Of a DNA stretch of 64,000 nucleotides, positions 28,890 through 41,215 are shown one piece after another (the stretch's first letter is position 1; each line of letters opens with the position of its first letter). The notes below the pieces were generated by a model. That model made no database searches. It was not told the DNA's origin and worked only from the letters and a program-made list of their open reading frames with translations. The translations under genes were made by a program, and so were the position numbers. Source of the DNA: a virus; IMG/VR virus record IMGVR_UViG_3300044643_001926, positions 5,907 to 69,906 of that record; one strand, written 5' to 3'.

Positions 28890-29132
28890 TCATCGGAGGG
28901 TCTTACCAAAGGAGGGGTTGCGGGTGATGATAGACCTCATGTGCTTGCGGAGGACCGCATTAAGCTCATCGAAGATCTCCGAGTCGACCCGGCTGAATTT
29001 GTGGTGCCGGGTCTGGTCGGCATAGTCCATGAGATACTGTTTGCAGGCTGCTTTGTTGATGAACTGGGAGACCCGGGTCCGGATCTGGTCGCGGACAAAG
29101 GTGTCGGTAGTAGGTTTTTCAGGAAGGGTCAT
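28890..29132 (-). CDS. hypothetical protein
   Basis: 80-aa ORF. Confidence 0.55.
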   Translation of the reverse strand: MTLPEKPTTDTFVRDQIRTRVSQFINKAACKQYLMDYADQTRHHKFSRVDSEIFDELNAVLRKHMRSIITRNPSFGKTLR

Positions 29133-29134
29133 GG

Positions 29135-29572
29135 TTAGAAGCTATACGGGTTTTCGTTGATGGTCGGCAAGGTCGGAGGTGCCGGCAGTTTCTTGCCGGG
29201 GAGCGGCTGCACCCAGACAAGGCTATGGATCCTACTGTCGGCACTGACCCGATGGGCCAGAGGAATAAGGTGATCCGCTGGCGGATCAGCCAAGGGCAGG
29301 AAGGTCGCCGCGACGATGATCGGGGTAGCCGCGACCAACCTCCGGAAAAGGCGGCGGGTCTGACCCCAGAAGGTCGGGGCAGTGGGTTGCGGGTTGGCCA
29401 GCAAAGTCGCCCACAGATGCGGGTAGACTTCGGCTGGAAGGCAGGGGTTTTTAGGGTCGTGGTCTCTATAGTTCATGGTATTTGGTTTCTTTCTTTGGTT
29501 ATGGGTGACGAGGCGCGGACGGAAGTGATGTCCATCTCTGGCGACTTCAATGCGCGTCTCGGGTTTGTTCAT
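29135..29572 (-). CDS. hypothetical protein with hydrophobic segment
   Basis: ORF; start uncertain. Confidence 0.45.
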   Translation of the reverse strand: MNKPETRIEVARDGHHFRPRLVTHNQRKKPNTMNYRDHDPKNPCLPAEVYPHLWATLLANPQPTAPTFWGQTRRLFRRLVAATPIIVAATFLPLADPPADHLIPLAHRVSADSRIHSLVWVQPLPGKKLPAPPTLPTINENPYSF

Positions 29573-29596
29573 GGTTAATACGACAGTGTGTGGTTA

Positions 29597-29755
29597 TTAC
29601 TCGTTCAAACGAATGTTTGGTTGCTGCTCAACTTCCCGTTGAGCCAGCGGGCTGACGTAGTTCGGATCGGCAAAGATCTTCTCCACTTCGATCCTCACTT
29701 CGAGGATGCGTTCGAGTTCGCTGACGAGTTTGAGGTCTTGGGTTTCTTGGTTCAT
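29597..29755 (-). CDS. hypothetical protein
   Basis: MNQETQDLK.., AAGGA upstream. Confidence 0.5.
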   Translation of the reverse strand: MNQETQDLKLVSELERILEVRIEVEKIFADPNYVSPLAQREVEQQPNIRLNE

Positions 29756-29783
29756 TGGTTCCTTTGCTTGGCTGTCGGGGCCG

Positions 29784-30014
29784 TCACTTACCCCAGGTTT
29801 CGTTAGGGTTGATCGCCAGCCAGCGGGCGAACCAATCATCATCGGCCCACAAGAAACTATCGGGGCCTTGATCCTTGGCCAGCATCGCTTCCACGGTGCT
29901 GGTGTCGGTGTGCAGTGCCTCGGCGGCATCTTGTATTGCCTCCGCTTGGGTGTCGCCATATCCCATCGGATTGCCCTCTGAGTCTATGATTGCGAATGGT
30001 GTTTTCGTTTTCAT
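29784..30014 (-). CDS. hypothetical protein
   Basis: MKTKTPFAII.., AAGGA upstream. Confidence 0.55.
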   Translation of the reverse strand: MKTKTPFAIIDSEGNPMGYGDTQAEAIQDAAEALHTDTSTVEAMLAKDQGPDSFLWADDDWFARWLAINPNETWGK

Positions 30015-30033
30015 GGTTCTTTGGTTCCTTTCT

Positions 30034-30651
30034 CTACTTGTTGATGACTTCGCAGATCGAAGGCGACTCAAAGCCCTCGGCCTTGTCGTCGGCCACGTTG
30101 AGCGTGCCATCGCTGGTGAATCCGAGGATCTCGGCTTCCCAGAGGGTGCCTTCATCCTCGTGAACCAGCACGCGGTCGCCGACGTGGAAGTTTGTCTTAC
30201 GGCCGCTCCAGTCGGTCGCCGTGATGTATTCCGGATCGAGCGGATCCAAGATCAGCTTCTCTTCGAGGCACCTCCGGATCGCGGAAATTACTTTGAACTC
30301 GTTGTGATGCCAGAGTCCAGTGGGCTTACCGGCATCGGCAAGCTCGATGATTTCCTTGGCGCGGTCGACGTTGAAATACAACGGGTGACCGTCATGCTGA
30401 AGGATCTCGCAGAGACCTTCCAAGCGCGAGCCGACCTTGGTGTATTCACGGTCGCCGATCGAGTAATACCAACCCGGACCTTCCGGCCACGGGCTATCGG
30501 GATCAGCTTCCTCCTCGGGCGCTACCTCGAAGAGCGAGTTCTTGCCGCCAGCAGTGGCGATGTCTTGGAGTTCATCCTCGGTGCCGATGTATAACTCGAC
30601 GCCGGTTTGATGATGGTTTACTCCGATCAGGTGCAGTGGTTCTTGGTTCAT
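30034..30651 (-). CDS. hypothetical acidic protein
   Basis: 205-aa ORF. Confidence 0.6.
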   Translation of the reverse strand: MNQEPLHLIGVNHHQTGVELYIGTEDELQDIATAGGKNSLFEVAPEEEADPDSPWPEGPGWYYSIGDREYTKVGSRLEGLCEILQHDGHPLYFNVDRAKEIIELADAGKPTGLWHHNEFKVISAIRRCLEEKLILDPLDPEYITATDWSGRKTNFHVGDRVLVHEDEGTLWEAEILGFTSDGTLNVADDKAEGFESPSICEVINK

Positions 30652-30729
30652 TGGTTTTGAGTTCTTTCTACTTGGTTCATGGTTCAGGGTTCAACGCTTC
30701 AATGCGTCATAAGGGGCCAGCACGCCTTA

Positions 30730-30984
30730 TCATTCAAGTTCGACAACCTCGCAGGTCGCGACGACATGGACGATCCGGCGGGCCGGTTCGGAGCCGGTGT
30801 CGAGGAACCTGTTGCAAGCGCCCCAGTGCTTCCTGACCTCGGCCAACACTTCTCGGGCCTGGTCCAGCGTCTTCGCCCCGCGGTGGCTGATAAACCACCG
30901 ATCTTGGGTAGTGTCGTGGAGCCCCCGGTGTTGGACTTCGTAGTAGTTGCGGGTGAATGTGGATTTGGGTTTGGGTGTGTTCAT
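30730..30984 (-). CDS. hypothetical cassette protein
   Basis: ATG 5 nt after the repeat at 30990. Confidence 0.6.
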   Translation of the reverse strand: MNTPKPKSTFTRNYYEVQHRGLHDTTQDRWFISHRGAKTLDQAREVLAEVRKHWGACNRFLDTGSEPARRIVHVVATCEVVELE

Positions 30985-31009
30985 CGTAGTTAAGAGGCCA
31001 GCACTCGGC

Positions 31010-31300
31010 TTATCGGTTGATGGGTGTCTCCCGGCGGACGATCTTCGCGCCGGCCTCGCGCCAAACTTCGAGCGCGTAGTTGAGCGGGGCGCAGTATCGG
31101 TTGCCGCCGGGACCGTTGTAGCTCCCGTCACGTTGCCGGGTGATGCGTGTCTCGGTGCCGTCCGGGAACACAGCGACCAAGTGTCGCCGCGCCCGGGGTG
31201 GTCGCCGACCGAAGAGCCCAAGATCAATGAAGATCCGGGTGAGTTCACGATTGTCCGCCGAGATCCCGGCGGGTTTCGAGTTGGGTTTTGTGGTGTTCAT
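31010..31300 (-). CDS. hypothetical cassette protein
   Basis: ATG 8 nt after the repeat at 31309. Confidence 0.6.
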   Translation of the reverse strand: MNTTKPNSKPAGISADNRELTRIFIDLGLFGRRPPRARRHLVAVFPDGTETRITRQRDGSYNGPGGNRYCAPLNYALEVWREAGAKIVRRETPINR

Positions 31301-31353
31301 ATCCACTATTAAGAGGCCAGCACTCATTTAACAGAGTAGATGATTGGGTTGTC

Positions 31354-32031
31354 TCAATTTGAGAGGACATCCTCTTCGGCGGCTTCGTAGCTCTCGAAGG
31401 GTCCATTGGCCTCACCGTCCGGGAGGCACCCGGGTTGGCAGGACCACCAGTAAAAGCCTTCGAGTTCTTCCGCGGCCTCTTTGGTAGTGGGTTCCACTTC
31501 GGCCTGATCGTAGTCCCCGGTGAGCTTGTCTTTGACTGACTCCGCGAGCAGATCGGCTTGCCAAGTCCCAGCTTCGGCCGCGAGAAACTCTTGGGCCTTA
31601 ACCTCGAAGATCTCGATTCCGGCGAGCTTCTTGTCCCGGTGTTTCTCCTGCCACTCCTCGAAAACCTCCTCGGCATGGTCGTTATACCATTCGTGGACTT
31701 GCTCTTGGATGTAGCTGTAGATCGCGGCGGGTTTCCACCCGAGTGGCCAGTCCTTATCGTCTTTGCTGTCGAAGCCGGCATTGTCGAACGCCTCCTCTAC
31801 TTCTGATCCGTGGAGGTAGAAGATGTCCCGGATCTCGTTGTTGTAGATCGGCACCGAGCCGTCGACGATCTCGTGAATCGTCCCCGAGTAGTCGAGGTCG
31901 TTGCCGAGATCGGGCAGCTTGTCCGGTTCGTTGTCGTCGCAGTAGCGAAGGAGTTCGTCTTTCACGTCCTCGATCGCGCTGTCGACGCGCTCTTGCAGGG
32001 TGTCTTCGATTTCGATGGTTCTCTTGCTCAT
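31354..32031 (-). CDS. Ocr-like acidic DNA-mimic (anti-restriction) protein with extra C-terminal domain
   Basis: Very acidic; 'IHEIVDGSVPIYNNEI' resembles T7 Ocr 'IHMAADNAVPHYYADI'; 'AAIY....HAEEVFEEW' resembles 'ARIY....DAEDLLNEY'. Confidence 0.65.
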   Translation of the reverse strand: MSKRTIEIEDTLQERVDSAIEDVKDELLRYCDDNEPDKLPDLGNDLDYSGTIHEIVDGSVPIYNNEIRDIFYLHGSEVEEAFDNAGFDSKDDKDWPLGWKPAAIYSYIQEQVHEWYNDHAEEVFEEWQEKHRDKKLAGIEIFEVKAQEFLAAEAGTWQADLLAESVKDKLTGDYDQAEVEPTTKEAAEELEGFYWWSCQPGCLPDGEANGPFESYEAAEEDVLSN

Positions 32032-32057
32032 GGTTTCCTTTCTGGTTTATGGGGTTA

Positions 32058-32369
32058 TTACAGCAGTTGAAGTTGATACCCGTCGCAGGGGACGGTCTTG
32101 CACTTTGCCCGGTGCACGGCATGACGCGCTGAGTGAAACTCGCGGCCATCGTGATCGGCGAACAGCGCGACCAAAGACGACAGCGCGTCTTGTAGGTGGG
32201 GAGCCGCCGCATAGAGATCGGCATGAGTGTGCAAACGCAAGCCGGCATCACGCAACTTGCGGTAGCGGCGGTCATCCTCCCCGAGGAGGATCATATACTG
32301 GTCGGCATACGCGGAGGCCGCGAATCCGACTTGAGCGACAAGCTGCGGGGTCAATGGTTCATGGTTCAT
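32058..32369 (-). CDS. hypothetical protein (AAAP.L..AL family)
   Basis: 'LYAAAPHLQDALSSLV'. Confidence 0.55.
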   Translation of the reverse strand: MNHEPLTPQLVAQVGFAASAYADQYMILLGEDDRRYRKLRDAGLRLHTHADLYAAAPHLQDALSSLVALFADHDGREFHSARHAVHRAKCKTVPCDGYQLQLL

Positions 32370-32402
32370 GGGTTTTGGTTTCCTTTCTGTTTGGGTTCAC
32401 AA

Positions 32403-32684
32403 TTAAGAGGCCAGCACTTTCAATTCTTCTTGCTCCCGGCTATTGTCGTAATCCGATTGCTTGGCCATGATCGTCTGCCAGCGGATGCTTTTTGAGTGAT
32501 ATATGTGGCGTTCTTCGGCATAACGAAGTTCGTTGATATATTTCCATTTGTCGGGGAAGGCGTCCCGGACTCCACGCTCGATCATCTCGCGTAGCTCTTC
32601 GGTGCCATACCGGCAGTTCACGGTGAGTGAAACGTCCAGCTTCACTCGGACTTCCTGATTCATATTCTCTTCGTATGGTGTCAT
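32403..32684 (-). CDS. hypothetical cassette protein ending VLAS
   Basis: Lies between two repeats; stop codon supplied by the repeat. Confidence 0.6.
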   Translation of the reverse strand: MTPYEENMNQEVRVKLDVSLTVNCRYGTEELREMIERGVRDAFPDKWKYINELRYAEERHIYHSKSIRWQTIMAKQSDYDNSREQEELKVLAS

Positions 32685-32705
32685 GGGTTTTGTTTCCTTT
32701 CGTAA

Positions 32706-32891
32706 TTAAGAGGCCAGCACTTGATGATAGTCGCCTTCCGGAATCCCGGCCCACTCAGCGAGCAGGGGATCACCGAAAAATAGTTCAGGGTTTGATTGCG
32801 CGAGGTCTTGAAGCTCGATGATCTCAGCATAGGAAATGTATTCCTCTTCAATCGCCTCACGTAGTTCTTGGAGTCGTGTCGCAGGGTTCAT
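32706..32891 (-). CDS. hypothetical cassette protein ending VLAS
   Basis: 'RL.ELR..IE.E.ISY.EI.ELQ.L..L.EWAGIPE'; stop codon in the repeat. Confidence 0.65.
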   Translation of the reverse strand: MNPATRLQELREAIEEEYISYAEIIELQDLAQSNPELFFGDPLLAEWAGIPEGDYHQVLAS

Positions 32892-32893
32892 GG

Positions 32894-33286
32894 TTACTCT
32901 ACCCTCCCTTCGGCTTTGGCGATCGCGGCAATGGCCTCCTTCACATAAGGGCGAGAGTAAGGATTGCGTGTCTCGTAATGCTCTCCAGTTTCGAAGGATC
33001 GCAGCATCGCTTTGAGAGCGACCAACAGATCGGGAGCATAATCCGTATTTATCGGCCGGGGCTCGACCGGATTCTCCTCGAACGAGAGATCGAGTTCCGG
33101 GTATCCGAGTTCTTCGGAGGACGGCGGGAGTTTCTTCACGCAAGCCAGCAGCGCATCGTATCTGTTCTTGAGTATGTCGGCCGGCGGGATCTCTCCGCGC
33201 TGAACGTCATCCAAGCCCCAGTCGAGTGCATGGTGCAACATATCGATCGCCTTCTGTAGTGGAGTGTATTCAGGTTTAGGGTTCAT
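32894..33286 (-). CDS. hypothetical protein (APDLL.AL family)
   Basis: 'APDLLVALKAML..AIAAIAKAEG'. Confidence 0.6.
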   Translation of the reverse strand: MNPKPEYTPLQKAIDMLHHALDWGLDDVQRGEIPPADILKNRYDALLACVKKLPPSSEELGYPELDLSFEENPVEPRPINTDYAPDLLVALKAMLRSFETGEHYETRNPYSRPYVKEAIAAIAKAEGRVE

Positions 33287-33289
33287 GGT

Positions 33290-33469
33290 TTAGGATTTTG
33301 ATAGGTCAAAGTAGATGTGGCGCAGGATGCTTTGGGCACCCCAATAAGCTAAATCCCTCTTGGTAATCACCGTGTGCTCCGCCCACTTGGGCCGAGGATC
33401 CTTGCGGGTCTTCCAAAGCACCGAAGCTATAATGCCTCTGATTTGCGCGTTGCTTAGTTCAGGGTTCAT
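33290..33469 (-). CDS. hypothetical protein (59 aa)
   Basis: MNPELSNAQIRG..; read manually, fills the gap. Confidence 0.5.
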   Translation of the reverse strand: MNPELSNAQIRGIIASVLWKTRKDPRPKWAEHTVITKRDLAYWGAQSILRHIYFDLSKS

Positions 33470-33478
33470 GGTTCAGAG

Positions 33479-33682
33479 TTAGTCCGTTATGTGGAGGTCA
33501 CGCAGATAATTCTCGCCCTCGATCTGCACGCTGTTGTGGCCGTCATCATTCCACCACATGACAATGGTGTGATCGCCGCGGGTCCATCGACGTTGGCCGT
33601 CAAAGTAGAAGGTCTTGCGGAGGTCTTCATATTCGGCTTGCGTGATCTCAACGATCCCGACTTCTTTGGTTCCAAGTTTCAT
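33479..33682 (-). CDS. hypothetical protein
   Basis: 67-aa ORF, TGAACC-ATG junction. Confidence 0.55.
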   Translation of the reverse strand: MKLGTKEVGIVEITQAEYEDLRKTFYFDGQRRWTRGDHTIVMWWNDDGHNSVQIEGENYLRDLHITD

Positions 33683-33685
33683 GGT

Positions 33686-33859
33686 TCAGGCCCAGGGCTC
33701 AGTGACTCCGAGATTAGCGAGAGCCTCCCGGGCCTCGGTGATGATGCCGTCGAGCCACTCGGCCGCGATCGGACCAAGTTGCTCACTGCTATGACGCGCT
33801 TGCTCGGCGCGGTGAAGGATGACGCGCAAGGCGTCGATGGTGGTTTGTTCTTTGTTCAT
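33686..33859 (-). CDS. hypothetical protein
   Basis: MNKEQTTIDALR.. Confidence 0.55.
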   Translation of the reverse strand: MNKEQTTIDALRVILHRAEQARHSSEQLGPIAAEWLDGIITEAREALANLGVTEPWA

Positions 33860-33876
33860 GGTTTCTTTCGTTTGGG

Positions 33877-34416
33877 TTAGAGAAGTTCTCCCTTCTCGTT
33901 GAATTCGTAGCCGTTGATCTCGCAGTGCTCGGCGAAGTTCTCGTCTTCGTATTGACCCTCGGCTTCGCTTTGCGCGTCTTCGAGCCATGACCGGAACCCG
34001 GCTTCGAGGAGTGTTTTGAGGTCAGTCTCCCCGGCGAAGAAGGCTATGCGGAAGCCATCGAGCGCGGACTCGTCGGCGCAGAAGCCGGTCAGCTTGCACT
34101 CGCCGGTCCCGCGCAAAGTCTCAGGATCATAGGCCCCGAGTTTCTCCAGCCGGGCGGCGATCTCTTCGCGGGTTAACTCGGGAAGTTCTTCAGCTTGTTT
34201 ACCGATAAAGTTGGCCCAGCTATGCGAGCCCCCGAAGAAGTCGATCGAGTAGTCATGCAGCTTGGCCTCGAACGCATTGGCGAAGACTTGCAGGACGGCC
34301 AAGTATTCATCATCGGACGAAAACCCGACATCGGCTTTGTAATCATACTTCGCCTTCTCTTTGGCGGAGGGACTGAGTTCGTTGAATTGGTAGGCTGTCG
34401 CTAAGTATTGTCTCAT
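33877..34416 (-). CDS. conserved acidic phage early protein
   Basis: 'YQFNELS..AKEKA' N-terminus and 'E.CEINGYEFNEKG' C-terminus, a common phage family. Confidence 0.7.
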   Translation of the reverse strand: MRQYLATAYQFNELSPSAKEKAKYDYKADVGFSSDDEYLAVLQVFANAFEAKLHDYSIDFFGGSHSWANFIGKQAEELPELTREEIAARLEKLGAYDPETLRGTGECKLTGFCADESALDGFRIAFFAGETDLKTLLEAGFRSWLEDAQSEAEGQYEDENFAEHCEINGYEFNEKGELL

Positions 34417-34459
34417 GGGTTCCTTTCGGGTTAGGTGTTCGTAATTAAGAGGCCAGCAC

Positions 34460-34549
34460 TCAGGTCGGGATGATCCAGTCGACGATTTGCATGAAGACAA
34501 GGAGCAGGGAGAGGCCGGCGATGAGGTGATCGAGGGTTGGGTGTTTCAT
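34460..34549 (-). CDS. small membrane peptide (29 aa)
   Basis: MKHPTLDHLIAGLSLLLVFMQIVDWIIPT; ATGA-coupled, stop abuts the repeat. Confidence 0.45.
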   Translation of the reverse strand: MKHPTLDHLIAGLSLLLVFMQIVDWIIPT

Positions 34550-34875
34550 TCGGCACCTCCTTCGATGCGGTCGATGAGCGCAATCGCACTCTCGTAAGAA
34601 TTCACGTTGTCCTCGGCCGAATAGTCCCGGTCGCCACCATAAGCGGCAATCAGACCGCGCAATGCGTTGAGAAGGTCGGGCGCGGCGGCAATGAGTCGGG
34701 CGTTGGCCTCATCTTGCGCGGCCATCGACCAGTTCCGGGACGTTACCGCTTTGCGTTTATCCGTGTTGGGCGTGTATTGGTTCGCGTTAACACGAGCTAC
34801 AAAATAATCACCTTCGGCAAAAATCTCGTTTCCGTCGATTTCCCAAGGGCCGGGAGTGTGTTGGTTGTTGCTCAT
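34546..34875 (-). CDS. HTPGPW..ANARLIAAAPDLL family protein, paralogue 3
   Basis: Motifs visible; coupled to neighbours. Confidence 0.75.
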   Translation of the reverse strand: MSNNQHTPGPWEIDGNEIFAEGDYFVARVNANQYTPNTDKRKAVTSRNWSMAAQDEANARLIAAAPDLLNALRGLIAAYGGDRDYSAEDNVNSYESAIALIDRIEGGAE

Positions 34876-35207
34876 TCGGCACCTCCTTCGATGCGGTCGA
34901 TAAGTTTGCTCGCATCCTCGATGTCGAGTTCGAGGTCCATCCGGGCATCCGGGATAAGCCCGTCGATAGCCTTGGTCCCAGCCGATAGTTGCTGCGCACG
35001 TTTAAGGAGGAACCGGCAGGTCTTTAGAAGGTCAGGCGCGGCGGCGATGAGTCGGGCGTTGGCATTTATCATTCCGATATTATCGTCGTCGGGAGGGGCG
35101 CAACGCGGGTCGCAGATGTCGTGAAATTCTCCATCTGCCCACGGGCCTCCAACGATAAATCCATCTACTTCTTTCCAAGGGCCGGGAGTGTGTTGGTTGT
35201 TGCTCAT
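34872..35207 (-). CDS. HTPGPW..ANARLIAAAPDLL family protein, paralogue 2
   Basis: Motifs visible; coupled to neighbours. Confidence 0.75.
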   Translation of the reverse strand: MSNNQHTPGPWKEVDGFIVGGPWADGEFHDICDPRCAPPDDDNIGMINANARLIAAAPDLLKTCRFLLKRAQQLSAGTKAIDGLIPDARMDLELDIEDASKLIDRIEGGAE

Positions 35208-35509
35208 TCGGCACCTCCCACTTTGGCGATCGCTTCCCGGGCAATCTCGACCGCCCGGTCGGGATCAGTGTTCCCGGCCGCGATGGTTTCGAGCGCGGCC
35301 AAGAGGTCGGGCGCGGCCGAGATCAGTCGACCGTTGGCCTCGCCGCCATCGTCCTCGGCGAGGTAATGGAAGCTACCCTTGGGATAAGCCGGGTTCGGGA
35401 TGTTGTGGGCGCTAACCGTGACGACGATAATGCGTCCGCTACGGTCGGTGATTTGCCCGAGATTGTTGAAGATCCAAGGGCCGGGAGTGTGTTTGGTGTA
35501 TTTGTTCAT
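35204..35509 (-). CDS. HTPGPW..ANGRLISAAPDLL family protein, paralogue 1
   Basis: Motifs visible; ATG 4 nt after the repeat at 35514. Confidence 0.75.
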   Translation of the reverse strand: MNKYTKHTPGPWIFNNLGQITDRSGRIIVVTVSAHNIPNPAYPKGSFHYLAEDDGGEANGRLISAAPDLLAALETIAAGNTDPDRAVEIAREAIAKVGGAE

Positions 35510-35544
35510 CGAATTAAGAGGCCAGCAGTGTGGTGTTATTACGG

Positions 35545-36054
35545 TTAGTGAAGAAGTTCCCCGGCATACCCGGAGAAGTATTTGCCCCGGGCGCAACCAA
35601 GGAGGTCGGCATAGTTGTGGAAATCGAATTGCCCATCATGCTTGCGGATATACTCCACCCGGTCGCGGTCGCTGTAGCAGTCGCGCCAAACTTGTTGGGC
35701 GGTCTCATCTTCGAGTTCCGAGAAGTCGTCTTCATCGACGACCGGGTAGTCTTCGAGCTTGTCGGCGATCACCTTCGCCTTCTCATGCTCCGGGGACCCG
35801 GCGCGGACCGACAACGATTCCCACCATCCGCAGGCCCAGTGGCCAAACCGGTCGATGGATACGTTGTCACTCTCGCCGCCGAGTTCCCGGAGTGCCGCAC
35901 GAAAGTTGCTCTCGGTCAGGCAATCCGAGTCCCGGGACTGGGTGAGCAGACAAAGCCAATCGGGTTCCGGGATTGCCCCAGCATAGTTATCCAAGGAGTC
36001 CCAGCCGCTCGGGTTGGAGACGATTTCTTTCAGAGGAGTAAGGTAGTTGGTCAT
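35545..36054 (-). CDS. conserved acidic phage protein
   Basis: 'RDSD.L..SNF..R.GHWACGW.E..LEDYPVVDEDDFSELE' family. Confidence 0.7.
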   Translation of the reverse strand: MTNYLTPLKEIVSNPSGWDSLDNYAGAIPEPDWLCLLTQSRDSDCLTESNFRAALRELGGESDNVSIDRFGHWACGWWESLSVRAGSPEHEKAKVIADKLEDYPVVDEDDFSELEDETAQQVWRDCYSDRDRVEYIRKHDGQFDFHNYADLLGCARGKYFSGYAGELLH

Positions 36055-36098
36055 GGGTTTTGTGGTGTTATGCGGTTACGGTGTTAAGACTGTCAAGA

Positions 36099-36482
36099 CT
36101 AAGAGGCCAGCAGTCCCCGAAAAGCGTCGAGGTATTCCCGGTAGGAGACAAACCCACACCGGGCATACCAAAGATCGATCGCTTTTTCGTCGTGGAAGTG
36201 TCCCTGGCCGGGGTCGCTGTTACTGCGACCCAGATCCTCGAAGGTCTCACCATTGTAGAATTCCTTGAGCACCAACTTGGTTTGCCCGGAGAGAATTGAG
36301 TTGTCGTCGAGTTCGATCTCGGCACCGGCCCGGGTGATGACGTTGCCGTAGCCATCATAAGATCCCGAGAATTTGTTGCCTTCGTCGTCGAGGACAACGA
36401 CCCGGGAATATTTCTCAGGCCAACTCGTTGAAGCGAGGACCGGAAGGTTGGTTTTTGCGCAGGTATAGCTGAAGAATCCCAT
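36099..36482 (-). CDS. hypothetical cassette protein ending LLAS
   Basis: 'MGFFS..C..G.YDGYG..DP.QG.F' family; stop codon in the repeat. Confidence 0.7.
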   Translation of the reverse strand: MGFFSYTCAKTNLPVLASTSWPEKYSRVVVLDDEGNKFSGSYDGYGNVITRAGAEIELDDNSILSGQTKLVLKEFYNGETFEDLGRSNSDPGQGHFHDEKAIDLWYARCGFVSYREYLDAFRGLLAS

Positions 36483-36544
36483 AGTATTATTAGTTGGTTG
36501 GTTTGTTGTTCGTGATTAAGAGGCCAGCAGTGTAGGGAGGGAGG

Positions 36545-36742
36545 TTATAGCGAGTCGCGGAGAGACTTGCCGCGCCAGTGGATGCGATCCTCAACACCCC
36601 ACATTCCGAGGCCAACGCGGACAGGGGTGTAGATATACCAGTAGGTGTGTGAGTCGCAGATTCGCGCATTGCGCCCGTATTTGGCTTCGATTTGTTTTAC
36701 GTAGCGGCGCGCTTCGTTGTGGCGTTGCAGTTGGATGTTCAT
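36545..36742 (-). CDS. hypothetical cassette protein
   Basis: Single ORF between two repeats. Confidence 0.55.
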   Translation of the reverse strand: MNIQLQRHNEARRYVKQIEAKYGRNARICDSHTYWYIYTPVRVGLGMWGVEDRIHWRGKSLRDSL

Positions 36743-36753
36743 GGTCTTCAATA

Positions 36754-36987
36754 TTAAGAGGCCAGCACTTCGCTTTTCGCGGCGAGGTCCTTCGCCGCCT
36801 TCCATCCGAGGTTGTAGTCAGCGCGGCCCCGCTCAAGCAGTGGACGCTGCGGAGCATCGTAATAGGCGAGGATATCTTTGCCTTCGAGGTAGTCATTCCA
36901 CCCGCGTTCCCGCTGTTTCAGGGATCCCCGAAGGAATTTGGTCAAGCCGCGCTGTTGGAGCTTTTCAGTGTAAGGGTTTGTTTTCAT
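36754..36987 (-). CDS. hypothetical cassette protein ending VLAS
   Basis: Single ORF between two repeats. Confidence 0.6.
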   Translation of the reverse strand: MKTNPYTEKLQQRGLTKFLRGSLKQRERGWNDYLEGKDILAYYDAPQRPLLERGRADYNLGWKAAKDLAAKSEVLAS

Positions 36988-36994
36988 TACAAGA

Positions 36995-37213
36995 CTAAGA
37001 GGCCAGCACTTCCCCGGTCTCTGCATGATAGTGCTCCAAAGCCCAGTCGAGATGGAACCGGACCTGCTCCTCGCCGAACAAATGCAAGGCATCCGTGAGC
37101 AGATCGATGAACGCTTCCCGGGCATCCTCGCCGGGTGAATAGTCGATGATCGCTCTGGCCACCTTTCGGGTGCGTTTGATTCTCTGGTCCTTGGTCAATG
37201 TGTCAAAGTTCAT
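36995..37213 (-). CDS. hypothetical cassette protein ending VLAS
   Basis: 'IDLLTDALHL..A..HY.AE' family; stop codon in the repeat. Confidence 0.65.
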   Translation of the reverse strand: MNFDTLTKDQRIKRTRKVARAIIDYSPGEDAREAFIDLLTDALHLFGEEQVRFHLDWALEHYHAETGEVLAS

Positions 37214-37237
37214 GGTGCGTGATTCAGGGTTCAGGGT

Positions 37238-37474
37238 TCAGCCGATAAAGTCTTCGAGCACTCCGAAAACACCGTCCTCGATTAGCGATTCAACGTAGTT
37301 GTAAACCTCGTTCGCCTCTTCGAGATCCTCATCATGGGCCGGGATAAGATCCCGGAGGTGATCGGTGATGGTTTTCTGGTAGTCGACGCCTGCGAGGATA
37401 TCCGCCCCGACTTCCCCGATCACTCGGCCGGGGATGCGTGTTCCGTAGTTAGTGGTGTATGGTTCGTGTTTCAT
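37238..37474 (-). CDS. hypothetical acidic protein
   Basis: MKHEPYTT.., follows the repeat at 37486. Confidence 0.55.
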   Translation of the reverse strand: MKHEPYTTNYGTRIPGRVIGEVGADILAGVDYQKTITDHLRDLIPAHDEDLEEANEVYNYVESLIEDGVFGVLEDFIG

Positions 37475-37500
37475 GGTGTTCAAATATAAGAGGCCAGCAC

Positions 37501-37728
37501 TCAGCGCGGCCAGCGGTCCACCGCCGCCTGGAATCGTTCGTTGCTCACCCGGGCACCATTGGGGTGCACCGCTTGAATCGTGCGTCCCCGGGCAGTGACC
37601 CGGACGAACCGACTCGGTCGGTCTCCGGGATAGCACCGGACCCATTGCCCGGTCTGCAATCGGAGTTGCCCATTGTAGAGCGCCACAAGGACACTGTTCG
37701 AAAGTAGAAGTGTAGGTAGGTATTTCAT
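37501..37728 (-). CDS. hypothetical protein
   Basis: 'LRLQTGQWVRC....PSRFV'; stop abuts the repeat. Confidence 0.6.
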   Translation of the reverse strand: MKYLPTLLLSNSVLVALYNGQLRLQTGQWVRCYPGDRPSRFVRVTARGRTIQAVHPNGARVSNERFQAAVDRWPR

Positions 37729-37738
37729 GGTTCAGGGT

Positions 37739-37927
37739 TCAAACTTGGGTCCAGTCGGTTGCTCTCGCGCCGGTATCCCGGCGGAAACTAAAGTCGATTC
37801 CGCATCCCCGGCACCGGAGGTGAATCCGGTTGCCAAGTTGCCCGAGGATCTGAGCGTCCGCGCTGTCGCACGCCGGGCAATAAGCCGGGTCAGTGTCTTG
37901 TTCGTATTGGAGTGTTTCGATGTTCAT
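37739..37927 (-). CDS. Zn-ribbon protein
   Basis: CPAC..LG.LG...H.RCRGCG. Confidence 0.65.
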   Translation of the reverse strand: MNIETLQYEQDTDPAYCPACDSADAQILGQLGNRIHLRCRGCGIDFSFRRDTGARATDWTQV

Positions 37928-38255
37928 GTTCACAATTAAGAGGCCAGCACTTGTCGGCGAGGCTGTCCTCGGCCGCATCGGCGAAGGCAGGGTGAGACAC
38001 GTCAGGCCACAAGCAACGCGGCCGAACCTCCCACACTTCCCAAACAATCTCGCCGCCCGGGGCTTCGTCGACCCCAACATGGAGGCGGGTTTTCTTGAGA
38101 ATCGCCGGGCGGGTGCCGCGCCCCGGACCGAATCCGGTCCAGAGAGTGTGCGTTGCTCCGCGTTCGGCACTCCAATCGCACGGTGCACCTTCGTAAACTT
38201 CGTGATCCTTCTTGAATTCCGCTTCGCGGACGATATGGCAGATGGTGTTTTTCAT
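37890..38255 (-). CDS. hypothetical cassette protein (reads through a repeat)
   Basis: ATG 8 nt after the repeat at 38264. Confidence 0.55.
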   Translation of the reverse strand: MKNTICHIVREAEFKKDHEVYEGAPCDWSAERGATHTLWTGFGPGRGTRPAILKKTRLHVGVDEAPGGEIVWEVWEVRPRCLWPDVSHPAFADAAEDSLADKCWPLNCEHEHRNTPIRTRH

Positions 38256-38263
38256 GTTCACAA

Positions 38264-38446
38264 TTAAGAGGCCAGCAGTGCGTCCATCCGCGCTTTCAAA
38301 AGGTCCGCCGCGAATTTCACGTCATGGTAGGCGTCGACGCAGTCGACCGTGATGCCTTTGCGGAGAATGTCTTTCAGGAGAGTGTGAGCGCCATTGGAGG
38401 CGAGCACCTCCTGGATCTCCCGATCGATTTCAGTGAGTGATTTCAT
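38264..38446 (-). CDS. hypothetical cassette protein ending LLAS
   Basis: Single ORF between two repeats; 'D.VDA..D....A.LL'. Confidence 0.6.
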   Translation of the reverse strand: MKSLTEIDREIQEVLASNGAHTLLKDILRKGITVDCVDAYHDVKFAADLLKARMDALLAS

Positions 38447-38479
38447 GGTTCGTCTTTAGGAGGCCAGCACTTATGGTGT

Positions 38480-38647
38480 TTAGGATTGCGCTTCGGCGAT
38501 CGTCCGGTCTTCGACCGTCGAAAAGAATTCATCCTTGTCGTCACTGTTAAGAAATATCTCTTCAGCTTCCTCCTCGGACCGGGCTTCGACTTCATAGTGC
38601 ACGGTCTCTGAGACTACGAAGGTGCGGAGTTTTGTTTCGGTTTTCAT
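38480..38647 (-). CDS. small acidic protein
   Basis: 'YEVEARSEEEAEE'. Confidence 0.6.
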   Translation of the reverse strand: MKTETKLRTFVVSETVHYEVEARSEEEAEEIFLNSDDKDEFFSTVEDRTIAEAQS

Positions 38648-38664
38648 GGTTCGTGATTCAGGGT

Positions 38665-39066
38665 TTATTCTTCCAAGGCACCTTGGGCGCTGGCCACTAA
38701 GCCGTCCCAAAAGGCTTCGTTCGCCGCATTTTCATAGGCCCGGCAAATGTCGTCCTCCTCTTCAGGCTCTAAGTCTGCAATGTCGTGACGACTCTCGAAG
38801 CAATCGGCCAGCAGTTCGCGGGGTGTATATCCGTCCGCATACTCTCCGGACAGATTCGGCGCGGCATAGGCATCAGTGATTTCCGGATCCCCTTCGTCGT
38901 AGCCTCGCAGGAATTCCCGGGCGGCATCTTTCCCGCCCCGACTCGAAGCGCGACCGCCCCAAGTGTCTTGCGAGACCCATCCCGCGCCATTCTTTCCGTG
39001 ACGCTTTCCGATTTTCTCCGCACGTTGCAACGCTAAGTTATATTTTTCGTCAGTGAGTGTTTTCAT
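38665..39066 (-). CDS. hypothetical acidic protein
   Basis: 'PNLSGEYADGYTP..L..ICRAYE' family. Confidence 0.65.
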   Translation of the reverse strand: MKTLTDEKYNLALQRAEKIGKRHGKNGAGWVSQDTWGGRASSRGGKDAAREFLRGYDEGDPEITDAYAAPNLSGEYADGYTPRELLADCFESRHDIADLEPEEEDDICRAYENAANEAFWDGLVASAQGALEE

Positions 39067-39094
39067 GGTCCGTAATTAAGAGGCCAGCAGTGGT

Positions 39095-39268
39095 TCAGTG
39101 AAGGGGTTCGGTGCAAAGCGCCGTCCAAGAGACATCGCAGATACGGATCACTCGAAGGTCTACCGCATGGCATCGCTCGATAACTCCGTTGACTTCATCC
39201 GCGGGGAAAATATCTGACCAGATTTTACCTGTGTTGGGACTCTCAAAGGTGAGTTCTTTATATTTCAT
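39095..39268 (-). CDS. hypothetical protein (57 aa)
   Basis: MKYKELTFES..; read manually. Confidence 0.5.
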   Translation of the reverse strand: MKYKELTFESPNTGKIWSDIFPADEVNGVIERCHAVDLRVIRICDVSWTALCTEPLH

Positions 39269-39292
39269 GATTCGCGCTTCAGGGTTCAGGGT

Positions 39293-39505
39293 TCAGGCTG
39301 CACGGTTCACGCGACCGCCGGACGGTCCGTTTTCCCCGGCGATATATCCGAGCCAGCGTTCCCGGTTGAAATTGGGATTCTGCGATTTGCAGAAGTCTGC
39401 GAGTTCGAGGATCGCTGCTTGTGAGAAGGCACCTTGCGCCGATCGATCAGCAGGACCGGAACGAATGATGACGTTTGCGAGTTGGATGAAGTGTTTCTTG
39501 CTCAT
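39293..39505 (-). CDS. conserved small phage protein
   Basis: 'MSKKHFI.LA..LADFC...NPNF.RERW' family; first gene of the array. Confidence 0.7.
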   Translation of the reverse strand: MSKKHFIQLANVIIRSGPADRSAQGAFSQAAILELADFCKSQNPNFNRERWLGYIAGENGPSGGRVNRAA

Positions 39506-39564
39506 ACATAAACAAGCGGCCAGCAGTCGGTTGAAATAACGCCATAACAGAGTAAACTGGAGCG

Positions 39565-40044
39565 ATGGGTAAACCCTCTCTCCCGGTCGATTGGGATGTC
39601 GTCAAAGGTCTTTATTTGCAAGGTGTCCCGGTTGCTACGCTTTCGGAACGCTTCGGGATCAACGCAAATACCTTACGCGCAAAGGCTTCCAAGAAAGGCT
39701 GGAACGCTATCGTCGGAACAGAGAAGGAACGCAAAGAGCAGATTACAGAGAAAAGCACGGCGATCGCTCGGGACATTTGGGCGGAGAGAAAAGAGACCAT
39801 CCGGGAAAGGATCCACTTAATCGGAGACCGAATGACTAAGGTTGCATCGGAACTACCTGATGACCAGATACTTAACAAGGCAGACAAGATCAAGATCGCT
39901 GCGGAGATAGCGGGGAAGATTGTTGGCCTGGATCGACAGGAGGACAAAAACGTGGTAAACATCGCACTATTAGGGAGTTACAGCGATTCTGACACCATCG
40001 ACATTCTGCCCCAATCTGCCCCAATGCTTCACGCTACAGAGTAA
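39565..40044 (+). CDS. terS: putative terminase small subunit
   Basis: N-terminal HTH 'DW..VK.LY..G.....LS.RFG....TL..KA.K.GW', helical core, 'GKIVGLD..NVVNI' tail. Confidence 0.6.
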   Translation: MGKPSLPVDWDVVKGLYLQGVPVATLSERFGINANTLRAKASKKGWNAIVGTEKERKEQITEKSTAIARDIWAERKETIRERIHLIGDRMTKVASELPDDQILNKADKIKIAAEIAGKIVGLDRQEDKNVVNIALLGSYSDSDTIDILPQSAPMLHATE

Positions 40045-40216
40045 AGGCGACAGGTTTCAAACCAGCGACCCCCACCACCCACCCCACCAGAGTAGAGGGC
40101 CAGGCCCCAACTCGCCCCTATATCTATCATTATCATGGGCTGTAAATTTTTTCGCCCAAAATGGAATTATTAACTTTTCGAAGGGGAGCCGGGTCGGACG
40201 GAACCCCCTCGATGCG

Positions 40217-40354
40217 CTAGAGCATAGCGGCAAGGCACTTCAGGAAACGACGCCACCGGGAGGCAGTCACGACAGCCTTCCGATCGCACCGCTCGAAGTA
40301 GCCAAGACCGCCATAAGGTCCGTAGACCAGGCCAAGATCATTCGATCGATACAT
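40217..40354 (-). CDS. small ORF (45 aa) with perfect Shine-Dalgarno
   Basis: AAGGAGGTGA just upstream of ATG 40354. Confidence 0.4.
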   Translation of the reverse strand: MYRSNDLGLVYGPYGGLGYFERCDRKAVVTASRWRRFLKCLAAML

Positions 40355-40499
40355 ACGGGTTCACCTCCTTTCATAGGCCCATAAGAAAGCACACATCGGG
40401 CCAAGTGCTATAGTAATGCCGGCGGGGTGCTGCCTGTGTCACCGTATGGTGCGCCGAAAGCAGCCCGATGCGGCTAAACCCCGGCCCCGCCTCCTCTTT

Positions 40500-40718
40500 A
40501 TGAAAGCCACCCTGGAGTTCCACCTCCCCGAAGACGACGAAGCCCTGACCGACGCCCGGAAGGGCTCCGACTGGCGATGGGCGGTCGACGACCTCTTCAA
40601 CTACCTCAAGTCCGAGACCAAGCACGCTGACCACTCGGCCGAGGAATACGCGATCTTCGATAAGGTCCGCGAGAAACTGGCCGAGATCCTCTCCGAGCGC
40701 GATCTGAGGGTCTGGTAA
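40500..40718 (+). CDS. conserved small phage protein
   Basis: 'MKATLEF.LPED' family. Confidence 0.7.
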   Translation: MKATLEFHLPEDDEALTDARKGSDWRWAVDDLFNYLKSETKHADHSAEEYAIFDKVREKLAEILSERDLRVW

Positions 40719-40867
40719 TGTCCGGCTGGCTGATCGCGGCGACCGGCGTGGCTTACGCTTGGGTTGCGATTGAGATGGCGTTATCCGGTAAGTGGCCGTT
40801 GGCGATCGTGTGGGGCGGATATGCCTTCGCCCAGATCGGGCTCTATATCGTCAGCCGGCAGGGCTGA
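40718..40867 (+). CDS. small membrane protein (49 aa)
   Basis: MSGWLIAATGVAY..GYAFAQIGL; TAATG coupling. Confidence 0.65.
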   Translation: MSGWLIAATGVAYAWVAIEMALSGKWPLAIVWGGYAFAQIGLYIVSRQG

Positions 40868-40909
40868 ACCCCCTACTTTCGAGAAGTCGCGCTCGAATTA
40901 CGCCTTCCA

Positions 40910-41215
40910 GGTGGGGGTGAGAGAATCTGACCCCCGTCACCCCCACGTCTGACCCCCACACTTAAAGCCTTCGATATGAGGGGTTTAACCCCTCTTGGGG
41001 GTGAGGGGGTGAGACACAGTTCTTTTTAGAATAAAAAAGTATAGGAGGGGGACGCCCGCTCCCCCACCGAGAGAATACGACCCACGGGGGTCTCCCCCCG
41101 ATTTGTCACCCCCCTCACCCCCACGAGGGGTTAAACCACTGTCGGACAGCACTTTAAGTGTGGGGGTGAGACCGCGGGTGAGAGATTTGGTGGGGGTGAC
41201 GATTTCCACCCCCAC
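40910..41215. repeat. long imperfect inverted repeat built from GTGGGGGTGA/TCACCCCCAC units (candidate origin)
   Basis: 40952-40967 pairs perfectly with 41152-41167; 40984-41012 pairs nearly perfectly with 41106-41135. Confidence 0.8.

What the first reader, a model, noticed from the sequence alone, without database searches (positions are those of the whole stretch)
30709..39526. Early/anti-defence region built as a cassette array delimited by 17 copies of one 15-bp motif
Seen: the minus-strand motif STGCTGGCCTCTTAA occurs 17 times, all in one orientation and only within this 8.8 kb. Every copy sits at a gene junction, the first directly upstream of the first gene (39505). Intervals are about 190-1740 bp and hold 1-6 small ORFs. 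Most copies also keep a YG at a fixed distance (TTA-N4-YG: TTAATTACGAA, TTAATTGTGAA, TTAGTCTTGAC, TTATATTTGAA), and the next ATG often follows within 0-7 nt. Inference, two non-exclusive models: (a) a phage-specific promoter with a GC-rich recognition element, AT-rich melting region and +1 G, giving near-leaderless mRNAs per cassette, although no phage RNA polymerase or sigma factor is recognisable in the window; (b) a recombination site that lets cassettes be captured, excised or shuffled in an integron-like way. Known analogues are PeSL cassettes of T4-type phages and start-associated sequences of mycobacteriophages, but I do not recognise this motif.
Basis: partly seen in the sequence, partly recalled or inferred. 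Interest (0 to 1): 0.87.

Follow-up and report, generated by a model that had tools for sequence, protein, structure and literature searches.

The report
Repeated gene-start motif in phage array
An uncultured lake-water phage marks 17 gene boundaries in its fast-changing block of small genes with one near-identical 23-base signal, a new example of the unexplained repeated start signals already known from other phages.

Summary
Seventeen same-strand copies of STGCTGGCCTCTTAA (11 exact) lie only in 30709-39526 of a 69.9-kb phage genome, all at gene junctions, against 0 expected.

The element is really about 23 nt: A-S-TGCTGGCCTCTTAA, four A/T-rich bases ending in Y, then GAAC.

New findings:
- The motif is a multiplied derivative of a single element that every relative carries at the head of this gene array.
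- Close relatives carry short perfect hairpins at junctions instead, each type nearly uniform within a genome. In one case this is the junction after the same gene.
- The array is hyperplastic. Forty-four copies in four genomes precede 27 unrelated gene families.
- Homology breakpoints hit motif-less junctions about as often as motif junctions.
- The integrase does not track the motif, so the integron-like model is not supported.
- No phage RNA polymerase or sigma factor was found.
- Copies far from a start codon stay perfect and more often have their own Shine-Dalgarno-like sequence. This argues against a ribosome-binding role.

Best reading: a cis-acting unit-start expression signal, either a promoter or another definer of the mRNA 5' end, with repressor "stoperator" sites as the main rival. 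Shuffling by homologous recombination would be a by-product. It is a new variant of the known start-associated-sequence, stoperator and PeSL kind. The mechanism is unproven.

The parts
39512..39526 (-). Head copy, CTGCTGGCCGCTTGT. It lies in the 59-bp divergent gap before the first array gene (ATG at 39505). It is homologous to the single head element GCTGCTGGTCACTT(G/A)T of all relatives.
39076..39090 (-). Junction copy, exact. The tail ttacGGAC follows and the ATG is 9 nt after TTAA.
38456..38470 (-). Junction copy with 1 mismatch (CTCCTAA). The ATG is 9 nt after it.
38264..38278 (-). Junction copy, exact. Its TAA is the stop of gene 38446-38264. The ATG is 8 nt after it.
37936..37950 (-). 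Junction copy, exact. A conserved 62-aa gene starting at 37927 follows it.
37486..37500 (-). Junction copy with 1 mismatch (TTAT). The ATG is 11 nt after it.
36995..37009 (-). Junction copy with 1 mismatch (TTAG). Its TAG is the stop of gene 37213-36995.
36754..36768 (-). Junction copy, exact. Its TAA is the stop of gene 36987-36754.
36516..36530 (-). Junction copy, exact. The ATG is 33 nt downstream, after an A/C-rich leader.
36099..36113 (-). Junction copy with 1 mismatch (TTAG). Its TAG is the stop of gene 36482-36099. The ATG is 44 nt downstream.
35514..35528 (-). Junction copy, exact. A TAATAAC-type junction motif precedes it and the ATG is 4 nt after it. In relative G003 the orthologous junction carries the hairpin GTCCGTTAACGGAC.
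34445..34459 (-). Junction copy, exact. The ATG is 28 nt downstream and has its own GAAAGGAA.
32706..32720 (-). Junction copy, exact. Its TAA is the stop of gene 32891-32706. The ATG is 21 nt downstream with GAAAGGAA.
32403..32417 (-). Junction copy, exact. Its TAA is the stop of gene 32684-32403. The ATG is 33 nt downstream with GAAAGGAA.
31309..31323 (-). Junction copy, exact. A degenerate inverted TAACAGAGTAGA box lies 5 nt upstream of it, the same order as at the array head.
30990..31004 (-). Junction copy, exact. The ATG is 5 nt after it.
30709..30723 (-). Last copy, with 2 mismatches (GTGCTGGCCCCTTAT). It precedes the 205-aa gene 30651-30034. Orthologous last copies exist in G001, G002 and G006.
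30730..39505 (-). Hyperplastic array of about 28 small genes (41-225 aa). Of 27 genes tested, 13 have a homologue in G001, 9 in G002, 3 in G003 and 0 in G004 or G005.
39545..39556 (+). TAACAGAGTAAA box. Here it points to the divergent gene p159. In relatives without the motif it points into the array, 3-4 nt before the head element. A second copy at 54796-54807 heads the late operon.
39565..40044 (+). p159, a divergent gene for a protein with a weak small-terminase or helix-turn-helix match. It was tested as a specificity factor for the motif and rejected.
31354..32031 (-). A 225-aa acidic array protein. Its homologues weakly match Pfam ocr (DNA mimic). It is present in all four genomes that carry the motif (G000, G001, G002, G006).

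Best explanation
The motif is a portable, strand-specific unit-start signal. It is an amplified derivative of the single regulatory element that all phages of this lineage carry at the head of their early block of small, variable genes. In this sub-lineage the roughly 23-nt element has been copied to 16 internal junctions. It consists of A-S-TGCTGGCCTCTTAA, a 4-nt A/T-rich spacer ending in Y, and GAAC. Each unit of 1-6 genes therefore starts in the same sequence context as the first gene.

I think it most likely fixes the 5' end of an mRNA at or near the conserved G. The favoured sub-model is promoter-type initiation giving leaders of 0-10 nt. Processing of a long transcript at that point is second.

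Because the copies are identical, they also offer homology for ordinary phage recombination, which helps genes to be swapped there. That is a by-product, not a dedicated integron-like system.

What is shown: the anatomy, the origin from the head element, the restriction to the array, and the association with many unrelated genes. What is inferred: that the element acts on expression, that a 5' end lies at the G, and which protein reads it.

My confidence is about 0.55 that it is a cis-acting expression signal of some kind, and about 0.35 for the promoter or 5'-end sub-model. The figure in the confidence field refers to the sub-model.
For: Chance is excluded and the strand bias is complete: 17 of 17 copies in the window and 16 of 16 in the genome are on one strand and only in the array.

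The architecture extends beyond the 15-mer. In 44 copies from four genomes the fifth base after TTAA is G in 39, preceded by Y in 40 and followed by A, A, C in 34, 34 and 24. The four bases in between vary but are mostly A/T. No sequence upstream of the core is conserved except an A.

The first copy lies in the 59-bp gap between divergent genes, where the array needs a start signal. In the three motif-rich genomes the only other conserved box in that gap, TAACAGAGTAAA, points away from the array.

All 11 related array heads carry one homologous element. By my reading, 10 of the 11 heads keep Y-G at the same fourth and fifth positions.

None of the 30 copies within 14 nt of the ATG has a Shine-Dalgarno-like sequence, against 5 of 14 distal copies (Fisher p about 0.002, but orthologous copies are not independent). 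Distal copies keep a perfect core and tail (for example 34459, 32720, 32417). The function therefore does not depend on touching the start codon, which argues against a ribosome-binding role.

The element precedes 27 unrelated protein families and follows 26 unrelated flanks. It is a generic signal, not part of one gene.

It has no RNA fold: RNAalifold predicts 0 pairs over the 17 copies.
Against: No RNA polymerase, sigma factor or known transcription factor was found. Pfam or PHROGs scans covered the large proteins, 20 array proteins, neighbouring genes and the first 6 kb of the genome. Not every ORF was scanned with both libraries.

The 3738-aa virion protein shows only polyvalent-protein domains.

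The motif does not fit sigma-70 -10/-35 rules. The consensus scan found 6 sites against 6.7 expected. It does not fit sigma-54 spacing either: GG-N11-YG instead of GG-N10-GC (inspection; the consensus is recalled).

There are no transcript data. No RNA run holds the region.

Starts lacking a Shine-Dalgarno sequence are general in this genome, including motif-less junctions. This weakens the leaderless argument.

In relatives, junctions carry hairpins instead, in one case at the junction after the same gene. Hairpins are unlikely to be promoters of the same type.

The uniformity within a genome and the difference between genomes suggest a co-evolving reader, and none was found.
Confidence: 0.35

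Rival explanations
1. Stoperator-like sites. A phage repressor or regulator binds the asymmetric duplex motif at the array head (as an operator) and at each junction. It blocks initiation and elongation so that the early genes stay silent in a lysogen. The hairpin and palindrome classes in relatives would be operators of other immunity types.
For: The motif is asymmetric, has many copies, has one orientation relative to transcription, sits in short intergenic gaps, and has one copy at the head promoter region. These are the features given for phage L5 and Cluster A sites in PMC9283540 (passages read). An integrase-like gene suggests a temperate life style. Different elements in close relatives, replaced in place between homologous flanks, resemble heteroimmune operator sets. 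The relatives' elements are perfect 14-22-bp palindromes, as expected for dimeric binders.
Against: No repressor or helix-turn-helix regulator co-varies with the element class. p159 fails, and so does the first array gene of the hairpin genomes. The sites are confined to 8.8 kb instead of being spread over the genome. A conserved G at a fixed distance and an A/T-rich spacer are not needed for a binding site. The asymmetric loops of the hairpin classes keep one orientation, for example 7 of 7 in both L012 and L022.
Confidence: 0.22
2. An RNA-level leader element within one long transcript. It could be a non-Shine-Dalgarno translation signal like the start-associated sequences of Cluster K mycobacteriophages, a boxA-like antitermination site, or a stability or processing signal.
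For: Thirty of 44 copies end within 14 nt of the ATG, and the upstream stop often lies inside the motif. This matches the SAS description in PMC3203893 (passages read). The head element would lie in the first nucleotides of the leader if TAACAGAGTAAA is the promoter box. The 3' half, CUCUUAA, resembles lambda boxA CGCUCUUA. That consensus is recalled, not tested.
Against: Fourteen of 44 copies are 15-61 nt from the start, yet they keep a perfect core and tail, and 5 have their own GAAAGGAA-type site. The motif holds no Shine-Dalgarno core. No RNA structure is predicted. Motif-less junctions have the same RAACC-ATG-AA start context, so the motif is not needed for initiation. The host is unknown, so no rRNA or boxA comparison was possible.
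Confidence: 0.18
3. An integron-like or otherwise site-specific recombination site that captures, excises and reorders cassettes.
For: Gene content changes across the motif. In 7 of 10 groups that share an upstream flank, the downstream gene family differs between genomes. Eleven of 22 and 7 of 16 homology endpoints lie within -8..+35 nt of a copy, against 8.4% expected. The motif may have spread from a head site.
Against: The integrase type does not follow the motif, and its gene lies about 14 kb away. Motif-less junctions are breakpoints about as often as motif junctions: 7 of 12 against 13 of 16, and 5 of 12 against 9 of 16. The motif has no inverted-repeat or attC-like fold. A PD-(D/E)XK nuclease that seemed to co-vary in six genomes fails in G008 and G006. 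The Logan contigs laid on the region showed no motif-to-motif joints (short contigs, weak test).
Confidence: 0.05
4. A repeat without a function of its own. It would be spread and kept uniform by recombination or gene conversion, or it would be a nick or nuclease site as in phages with localised single-strand interruptions.
For: No reader protein was found. The array of G006 mixes hairpins and motif copies. Junction elements are replaced in place between homologous flanks.
Against: The 8-nt centre is invariant in 17 of 17 copies, and the tail stays in fixed register in four genomes. The strand bias is strict, and every copy lies outside or at the very end of coding sequence. All three point to selection.
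Confidence: 0.1

Closest known systems
Start-associated sequences (SAS) and extended SAS of Cluster K mycobacteriophages (PMC3203893; passages read)
   Same: Both are short asymmetric repeats in one orientation, confined to the non-structural part of the genome. Both lie a few nt before ATG starts of many unrelated gene families, and the upstream stop sometimes falls inside the repeat. Both come with inverted-repeat elements whose consensus differs between sub-lineages. The function is unknown in both.
   Different: SAS is 13 bp, contains the AGGAG Shine-Dalgarno core and sits 3-7 bp from the start. This motif is about 23 nt, has no Shine-Dalgarno core and is 15-61 nt from the start in 14 of 44 copies. 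Here the linear motif and the hairpins mostly replace each other between genomes instead of being combined.
Operators and stoperators of L5 and Cluster A mycobacteriophages (PMC9283540, passages read; PMC6550527, search listing only)
   Same: Both are asymmetric sites with more than 15 copies, in promoter regions and short intergenic gaps, with an orientation tied to the direction of transcription.
   Different: Stoperators are 13-mers spread over the whole genome and have a known repressor. Here the sites occupy a single 8.8-kb block and no repressor was identified.
PeSL (promoter-early stem-loop) cassettes of T4-type phages (PMC4122927, abstract read; PMC2839356, search listing)
   Same: Both are repeated regulatory sequences at boundaries of small variable genes in hyperplastic regions, and both coincide with insertion, deletion and replacement breakpoints.
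   Different: PeSLs are composites of a host-type early promoter and a terminator stem-loop. This motif has no sigma-70 features and no stem-loop. Its relatives have stem-loops without a T-run and without a recognisable promoter.
The 17-bp dyad repeat TGTTCGGNNNCCGAACA of Cluster O mycobacteriophages (PMC4351075; passages read)
   Same: It resembles the hairpin elements of the relatives, for example CTTGTTCGCATCCGAACAAG in G005. Both are invariant short inverted repeats with many copies, often between genes, of unknown function.
   Different: It applies to the relatives, not to the linear motif of this window. Cluster O has more than 30 copies genome-wide without a clear orientation.
T7-type promoters of single-subunit phage RNA polymerases (recalled knowledge)
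   Same: Both are about 23 nt, nearly identical copies in one orientation, in numbers like T7's (recalled as 17), with an A/T-rich stretch before a G.
   Different: No single-subunit RNA polymerase is encoded here, by the HMM scans listed above. The start at the G is not measured.

Membership tests
Integron (attI/attC cassette array) | An IntI-type tyrosine recombinase whose specificity goes with the sites, encoded beside attI | tested here: not met
   The only integrase-like gene (53465-54703) lies about 14 kb from the array head. Its type does not follow the motif: G000 is 43.7% identical to G001 and G002, which share the motif, while G001 and G002 are 98.5-99.8% identical to G003, which lacks it.
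Integron (attI/attC cassette array) | attC sites are imperfect inverted repeats that fold as single-stranded hairpins | tested here: not met
   RNAalifold on the 17 copies with flanks predicts 0 pairs. The core is not self-complementary.
Integron (attI/attC cassette array) | Cassette boundaries, meaning gain and loss breakpoints, lie at the sites | tested here: inconclusive
   Breakpoints hit 13 of 16 and 9 of 16 motif junctions, but also 7 of 12 and 5 of 12 motif-less junctions. Seven of 10 shared upstream flanks have different downstream genes.
T4-type PeSL | A host sigma-70 early promoter consensus within the repeat | tested here: not met
   None of the six sites from the consensus scan lies at a motif copy, and the count is at chance (6 found, 6.7 expected). 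Nothing upstream of the core is conserved.
T4-type PeSL | A stem-loop terminator joined to the promoter | tested here: not met
   No fold is predicted. Terminator-like sites are at chance (17 found, 19.7 expected). Relatives have hairpins without a T-run.
T4-type PeSL | Sits at indel and replacement breakpoints of a hyperplastic region | tested here: met
Start-associated sequences (Cluster K) | An asymmetric repeat in one orientation, in the non-structural region, immediately upstream of starts of unrelated genes | tested here: met
   Thirty of 44 copies lie within 14 nt of the ATG.
Start-associated sequences (Cluster K) | Contains the Shine-Dalgarno core and occupies the ribosome-binding position | tested here: not met
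   The motif holds no AGGA, GGAG or GAGG. Fourteen of 44 copies are 15-61 nt from the start, and 5 of these have a separate Shine-Dalgarno-like site.
Stoperators (Cluster A) | Asymmetric sites in intergenic gaps, oriented with transcription, with one at the early promoter | tested here: met
   That the head copy lies at a promoter is inferred from its position only.
Stoperators (Cluster A) | A cognate immunity repressor binds the sites | not testable with these tools
   No repressor was recognised. The candidates tested for co-variation failed.
Stoperators (Cluster A) | Sites are distributed across the genome | tested here: not met
   All copies lie within 8.8 kb of the 69.9-kb genome.
T7-type phage promoter | The phage encodes a single-subunit RNA polymerase | tested here: not met
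   No RNA polymerase family appears in the Pfam or PHROGs scans. The giant protein has no PDB sequence match. No D-x-D-x-D signature occurs in any G000 ORF of 150 aa or more (the motif is recalled).
T7-type phage promoter | Transcripts start at the conserved G | not testable with these tools
   No RNA run holds the region.

The most novel reading that the evidence does not exclude
The junction elements are a swappable address code read by an unidentified phage factor. In this sub-lineage the code is a linear 23-mer. In sister phages with 82-94% identical replication proteins it is one of at least five different perfect hairpins. This would be a new phage-specific transcription or RNA-processing system in a lineage with no recognisable RNA polymerase or sigma factor. 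Its uniformity within a genome would also channel gene exchange between phages that share the same code, giving integron-like turnover without an integrase.
Probability: 0.15. Interest if true: 0.8.

Novelty: new variant of a known kind. Interest (0 to 1): 0.5.

Why it matters
Repeated start-linked motifs are recurring features of phage genomes: SAS, stoperators, PeSLs and the Cluster O repeats. The papers I read leave SAS/ESAS and the Cluster O repeat without a known function.

This lineage offers a natural experiment. Close relatives carry interchangeable element types, in one case at the junction after the same gene, and one sub-lineage has multiplied its array-head element. One of those genes may encode an Ocr-like DNA mimic. 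It would also show how such blocks gain and lose genes.

If the motif is a compact autonomous promoter or processing site, it could be useful as a part. If it is only an ordinary regulator binding site, the finding is a further example of a known pattern.

Tried and rejected
**Specificity factors tested by co-variation and rejected**
- p159 (39565-40044): L010 and L022 have identical N-termini but different junction elements.
- The integrase.
- The PD-(D/E)XK gene at 59468-59860. In six complete genomes its alleles split exactly like the element classes while its neighbours do not. G008, with 7 class-F hairpins in the 4.7 kb of array that is visible, has a 99% identical allele. G006, with 3 motif-like copies, has a 58% allele.
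- The first gene of the hairpin arrays.
- p80 (28890-29132). It splits like the classes but is physically linked to the array. Its AlphaFold model is poor (mean pLDDT 57.6), so no fold search was made.

**Hidden RNA polymerase in the 3738-aa protein: not supported**
- No PDB sequence match at E up to 1.
- The Atlas best score is 0.87, with only LPD-domain leads.
- Pfam on six segments gives only the ART and kinase polyvalent domains.
- An HMMER search with residues 1101-1880 finds a shared domain of about 260 aa in other giant proteins, too small for a polymerase.

**Sigma-54, extracytoplasmic-function sigma and Bacteroidota-type (-7 TAnnTTTG) promoter readings**
I considered these by eye. The consensus sequences are recalled. 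Sigma-54 spacing is off by one and the start would fall inside the gene. The -7 box is only partly matched, and no -33 element is conserved.

**Complementarity to 16S rRNA**
The core is complementary to 8 nt of the conserved region around position 520 (recalled sequence). A match of that length is expected by chance about once in five tries, so I dropped it.

**Known relatives and host**
- No megablast match among 50,697 phage records.
- The best DNA polymerase A match is 27-28% identical.
- The 770-aa protein has no match in phage records or in GTDB genome contigs.
- The host remains unknown.

**Sequencing runs**
No RNA holder is listed. All 24 runs are DNA metagenomes, 20 of them labelled lake water. 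Logan contigs of four runs laid on 29000-41500 were short (mostly 300-1000 nt) and gave no usable joints at the motif. This says nothing either way.

**Literature**
The motif string is in none of the papers searched. Supplementary files of the papers were not opened. Figures S3 and S4 of PMC3203893 may hold further SAS details.

**Other**
- Ocr: a profile of the 225-aa family finds no PDB sequence, so only the weak Pfam lead remains.

Full report
**What is there**

The window is bases 5907-69906 of a 69,906-bp IMG/VR virus record that CheckV rates as complete. The pattern STGCTGGCCTCTTAA occurs 11 times exactly, against none in 100 shuffles. With up to three mismatches it occurs 18 times. Seventeen of these lie between 30709 and 39526, all on the minus strand. 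The eighteenth, at 20109, is within chance. The whole genome has no further copy: 16 of 16 core matches lie in the array, and the reversed control gives 0. Spacings are 192-1739 bp.

**Anatomy**

An alignment of the 17 copies with flanks shows nothing conserved upstream except an A. The centre TGCTGGCC is invariant. Downstream there is a tail in fixed register. Over 44 copies in four genomes (17, 13, 11 and 3) the fourth base after TTAA is Y in 40, the fifth is G in 39, and then come A in 34, A in 34 and C in 24. The unit is therefore about 23 nt: A-S-TGCTGGCCTCTTAA-WNNY-GAAC. RNAalifold finds no pairs.

Every copy lies between a stop and the next ATG in my minus-strand gene tiling. Six genes end at the motif's own TAA or TAG. 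Thirty of the 44 copies end within 14 nt of the ATG, and none of these has a Shine-Dalgarno-like sequence. Fourteen are 15-61 nt away, and five of those have one, typically GAAAGGAA.

**The genome around it**

The phage has these recognisable genes:
- a family A DNA polymerase;
- a primase with a DUF5906 domain;
- a helicase fused to a DUF2800 nuclease;
- RusA and dCMP deaminase;
- an integrase-like gene;
- tail fibre genes and an endolysin;
- a 3738-aa polyvalent virion protein with ADP-ribosyltransferase and kinase domains.

It has no close cultured relative and none in GTDB genomes. It occurs in DNA metagenomes, 20 of the 24 listed runs being labelled lake water. Sigma-70-like promoters and intrinsic terminators are at chance level in 25-42 kb.

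Most genes, early and late, lack a Shine-Dalgarno sequence and start in the context RAACC-ATG-AA. None of the 20 array proteins scanned has a Pfam match. The 225-aa protein has homologues that weakly match the Ocr DNA mimic.

**Relatives**

Fifteen related loci were found through the primase, at 74-86% identity. Two complete genomes, G001 and G002, carry the same motif 13 and 11 times. A third, G006, carries three motif-like copies in the distal part of its array and five hairpins in the proximal part.

The other relatives have no such copies. Their junctions carry short perfect hairpins that are nearly uniform within a genome and differ between genomes:
- GTCCGTTAACGGAC
- GTCCGGAATTCCGGAC
- GTCGCAAACGCGAC
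- GTTCGCATCCGAAC
- GTCGGAATTCCGAC

At one junction both flanks are homologous in four genomes, yet each genome has its own hairpin type. After the 169-aa gene, this window has the motif where G003 has a hairpin.

**Origin of the motif**

Every relative has exactly one element, GCTGCTGGTCACTT(G/A)T, at the head of the array, 2-3 nt before an ATG. A conserved box, TAACAGAGTAAA, precedes it. The head copy here (CTGCTGGCCGCTTGT) is its homologue, and the junction copies differ from it by a few bases. The motif is thus a multiplied derivative of the head element.

In the three motif-rich genomes the TAACAGAGTAAA box is inverted and points to the divergent gene p159. The same box also heads the late operon at 54796.

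**Is it a recombination site?**

The array is hyperplastic. Of 27 array genes, 13 have a homologue in G001, 9 in G002, 3 in G003 and none in G004 or G005. The replication genes, by contrast, are 82-98% identical in G001-G003 and 75-83% in G004 and G005.

Homology endpoints cluster at the motif. Eleven of 22 (against G001) and 7 of 16 (against G002) lie within -8..+35 nt of a copy, where 8.4% is expected. In 7 of 10 groups that share an upstream flank, the downstream gene differs between genomes.

Motif-less junctions are hit about as often: 7 of 12 and 5 of 12, against 13 of 16 and 9 of 16 for motif junctions. These figures include one endpoint that my gene list had misplaced. Breakpoints therefore follow gene boundaries in general.

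The integrase type does not follow the motif. I conclude that exchange at the motif is ordinary homologous recombination at a repeated sequence, not a dedicated system.

**Who reads it?**

No RNA polymerase or sigma factor was found. The giant protein gave no polymerase signal.

Five candidates for a co-varying factor were tested. p159, the integrase, a PD-(D/E)XK nuclease and the first array gene of the hairpin genomes failed. The fifth, p80, could not be separated from linkage to the array, and its model was poor. The within-genome uniformity of the elements remains unexplained.

**Verdict**

The most coherent reading is a cis-acting unit-start signal derived from the array head, most likely fixing an mRNA 5' end at the conserved G. 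The main rivals are a stoperator-like repressor site and an RNA-level leader. An integron-like mechanism is not supported.

The closest known analogue in form is the SAS/ESAS system of Cluster K mycobacteriophages, followed by stoperators, PeSLs and the Cluster O repeat. It is a new variant of a known kind in an uncultured lineage, and its mechanism is open.

Noticed in passing
window 3538, 9339, 58302, 59858, 63153 (+) and 52702, 49393, 44114, 35541, 32060, 29599 (-), among others: A second junction motif occurs genome-wide: AGTAATAAC(C/G/A)NC(A/G)YA, about 20 copies on the coding strand at gene ends in both early and late genes. At 3538 the first TAA is the upstream stop (checked there only). 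In several cases the next ATG follows 7-8 nt after TAATAAC.
   Followed up: partly
array and neighbours, e.g. 39270-39300, 37215-37240, 30655-30700: Starts are poor in Shine-Dalgarno sequences and share the context RAACC-ATG-AA(A/C). Runs of the heptamer TGAACC(C/A) before several starts place TGA in all three frames.
   Followed up: partly
window 40870-41270: A non-coding stretch is full of G-rich direct and inverted repeats (GGGGGTGAGAG and TCACCCCCAC). It lies next to the small-terminase-like p159 operon and may be an origin or packaging site.
   Followed up: no
window 13889-25105 (+): A 3738-aa polyvalent virion protein carries ART-PolyVal and Kinase-PolyVal domains. A roughly 260-aa domain (about residues 1553-1835) is shared with other proteins of 3-4 thousand residues. 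An HExxH motif seen in the sequence was not located or checked in the homologues. The central part (about residues 500-2760) is 85% conserved in G001 and G002 but only 26-36% identical in G003.
   Followed up: partly
window 59468-59860 (+): A PD-(D/E)XK endonuclease gene (PF11645) forms a divergent allele island (42-77% identity between types) between neighbours that are 79-100% identical (96-99% in the two comparisons that matter).
   Followed up: yes
window 31354-32031 (-): A 225-aa acidic protein belongs to a family with 335 homologues. Seven of the 24 homologues scanned weakly match Pfam ocr (best E 9e-4). It may be a DNA-mimic anti-restriction protein.
   Followed up: partly
window 34546-35509 (-): Three adjacent small genes have similar N-termini containing HTPGPW. 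They look like tandem paralogues.
   Followed up: no
window 53465-54703 (-): The integrase-like gene is a different allele from that of close relatives: 44% identical to G001-G003, which are 98.5-99.8% identical to each other.
   Followed up: yes
window 39545-39556, 54796-54807, 31329-31340 (+): The TAACAGAGTAAA box stands at two operon heads. Its orientation at the p159/array gap is flipped between motif-type and hairpin-type genomes.
   Followed up: partly
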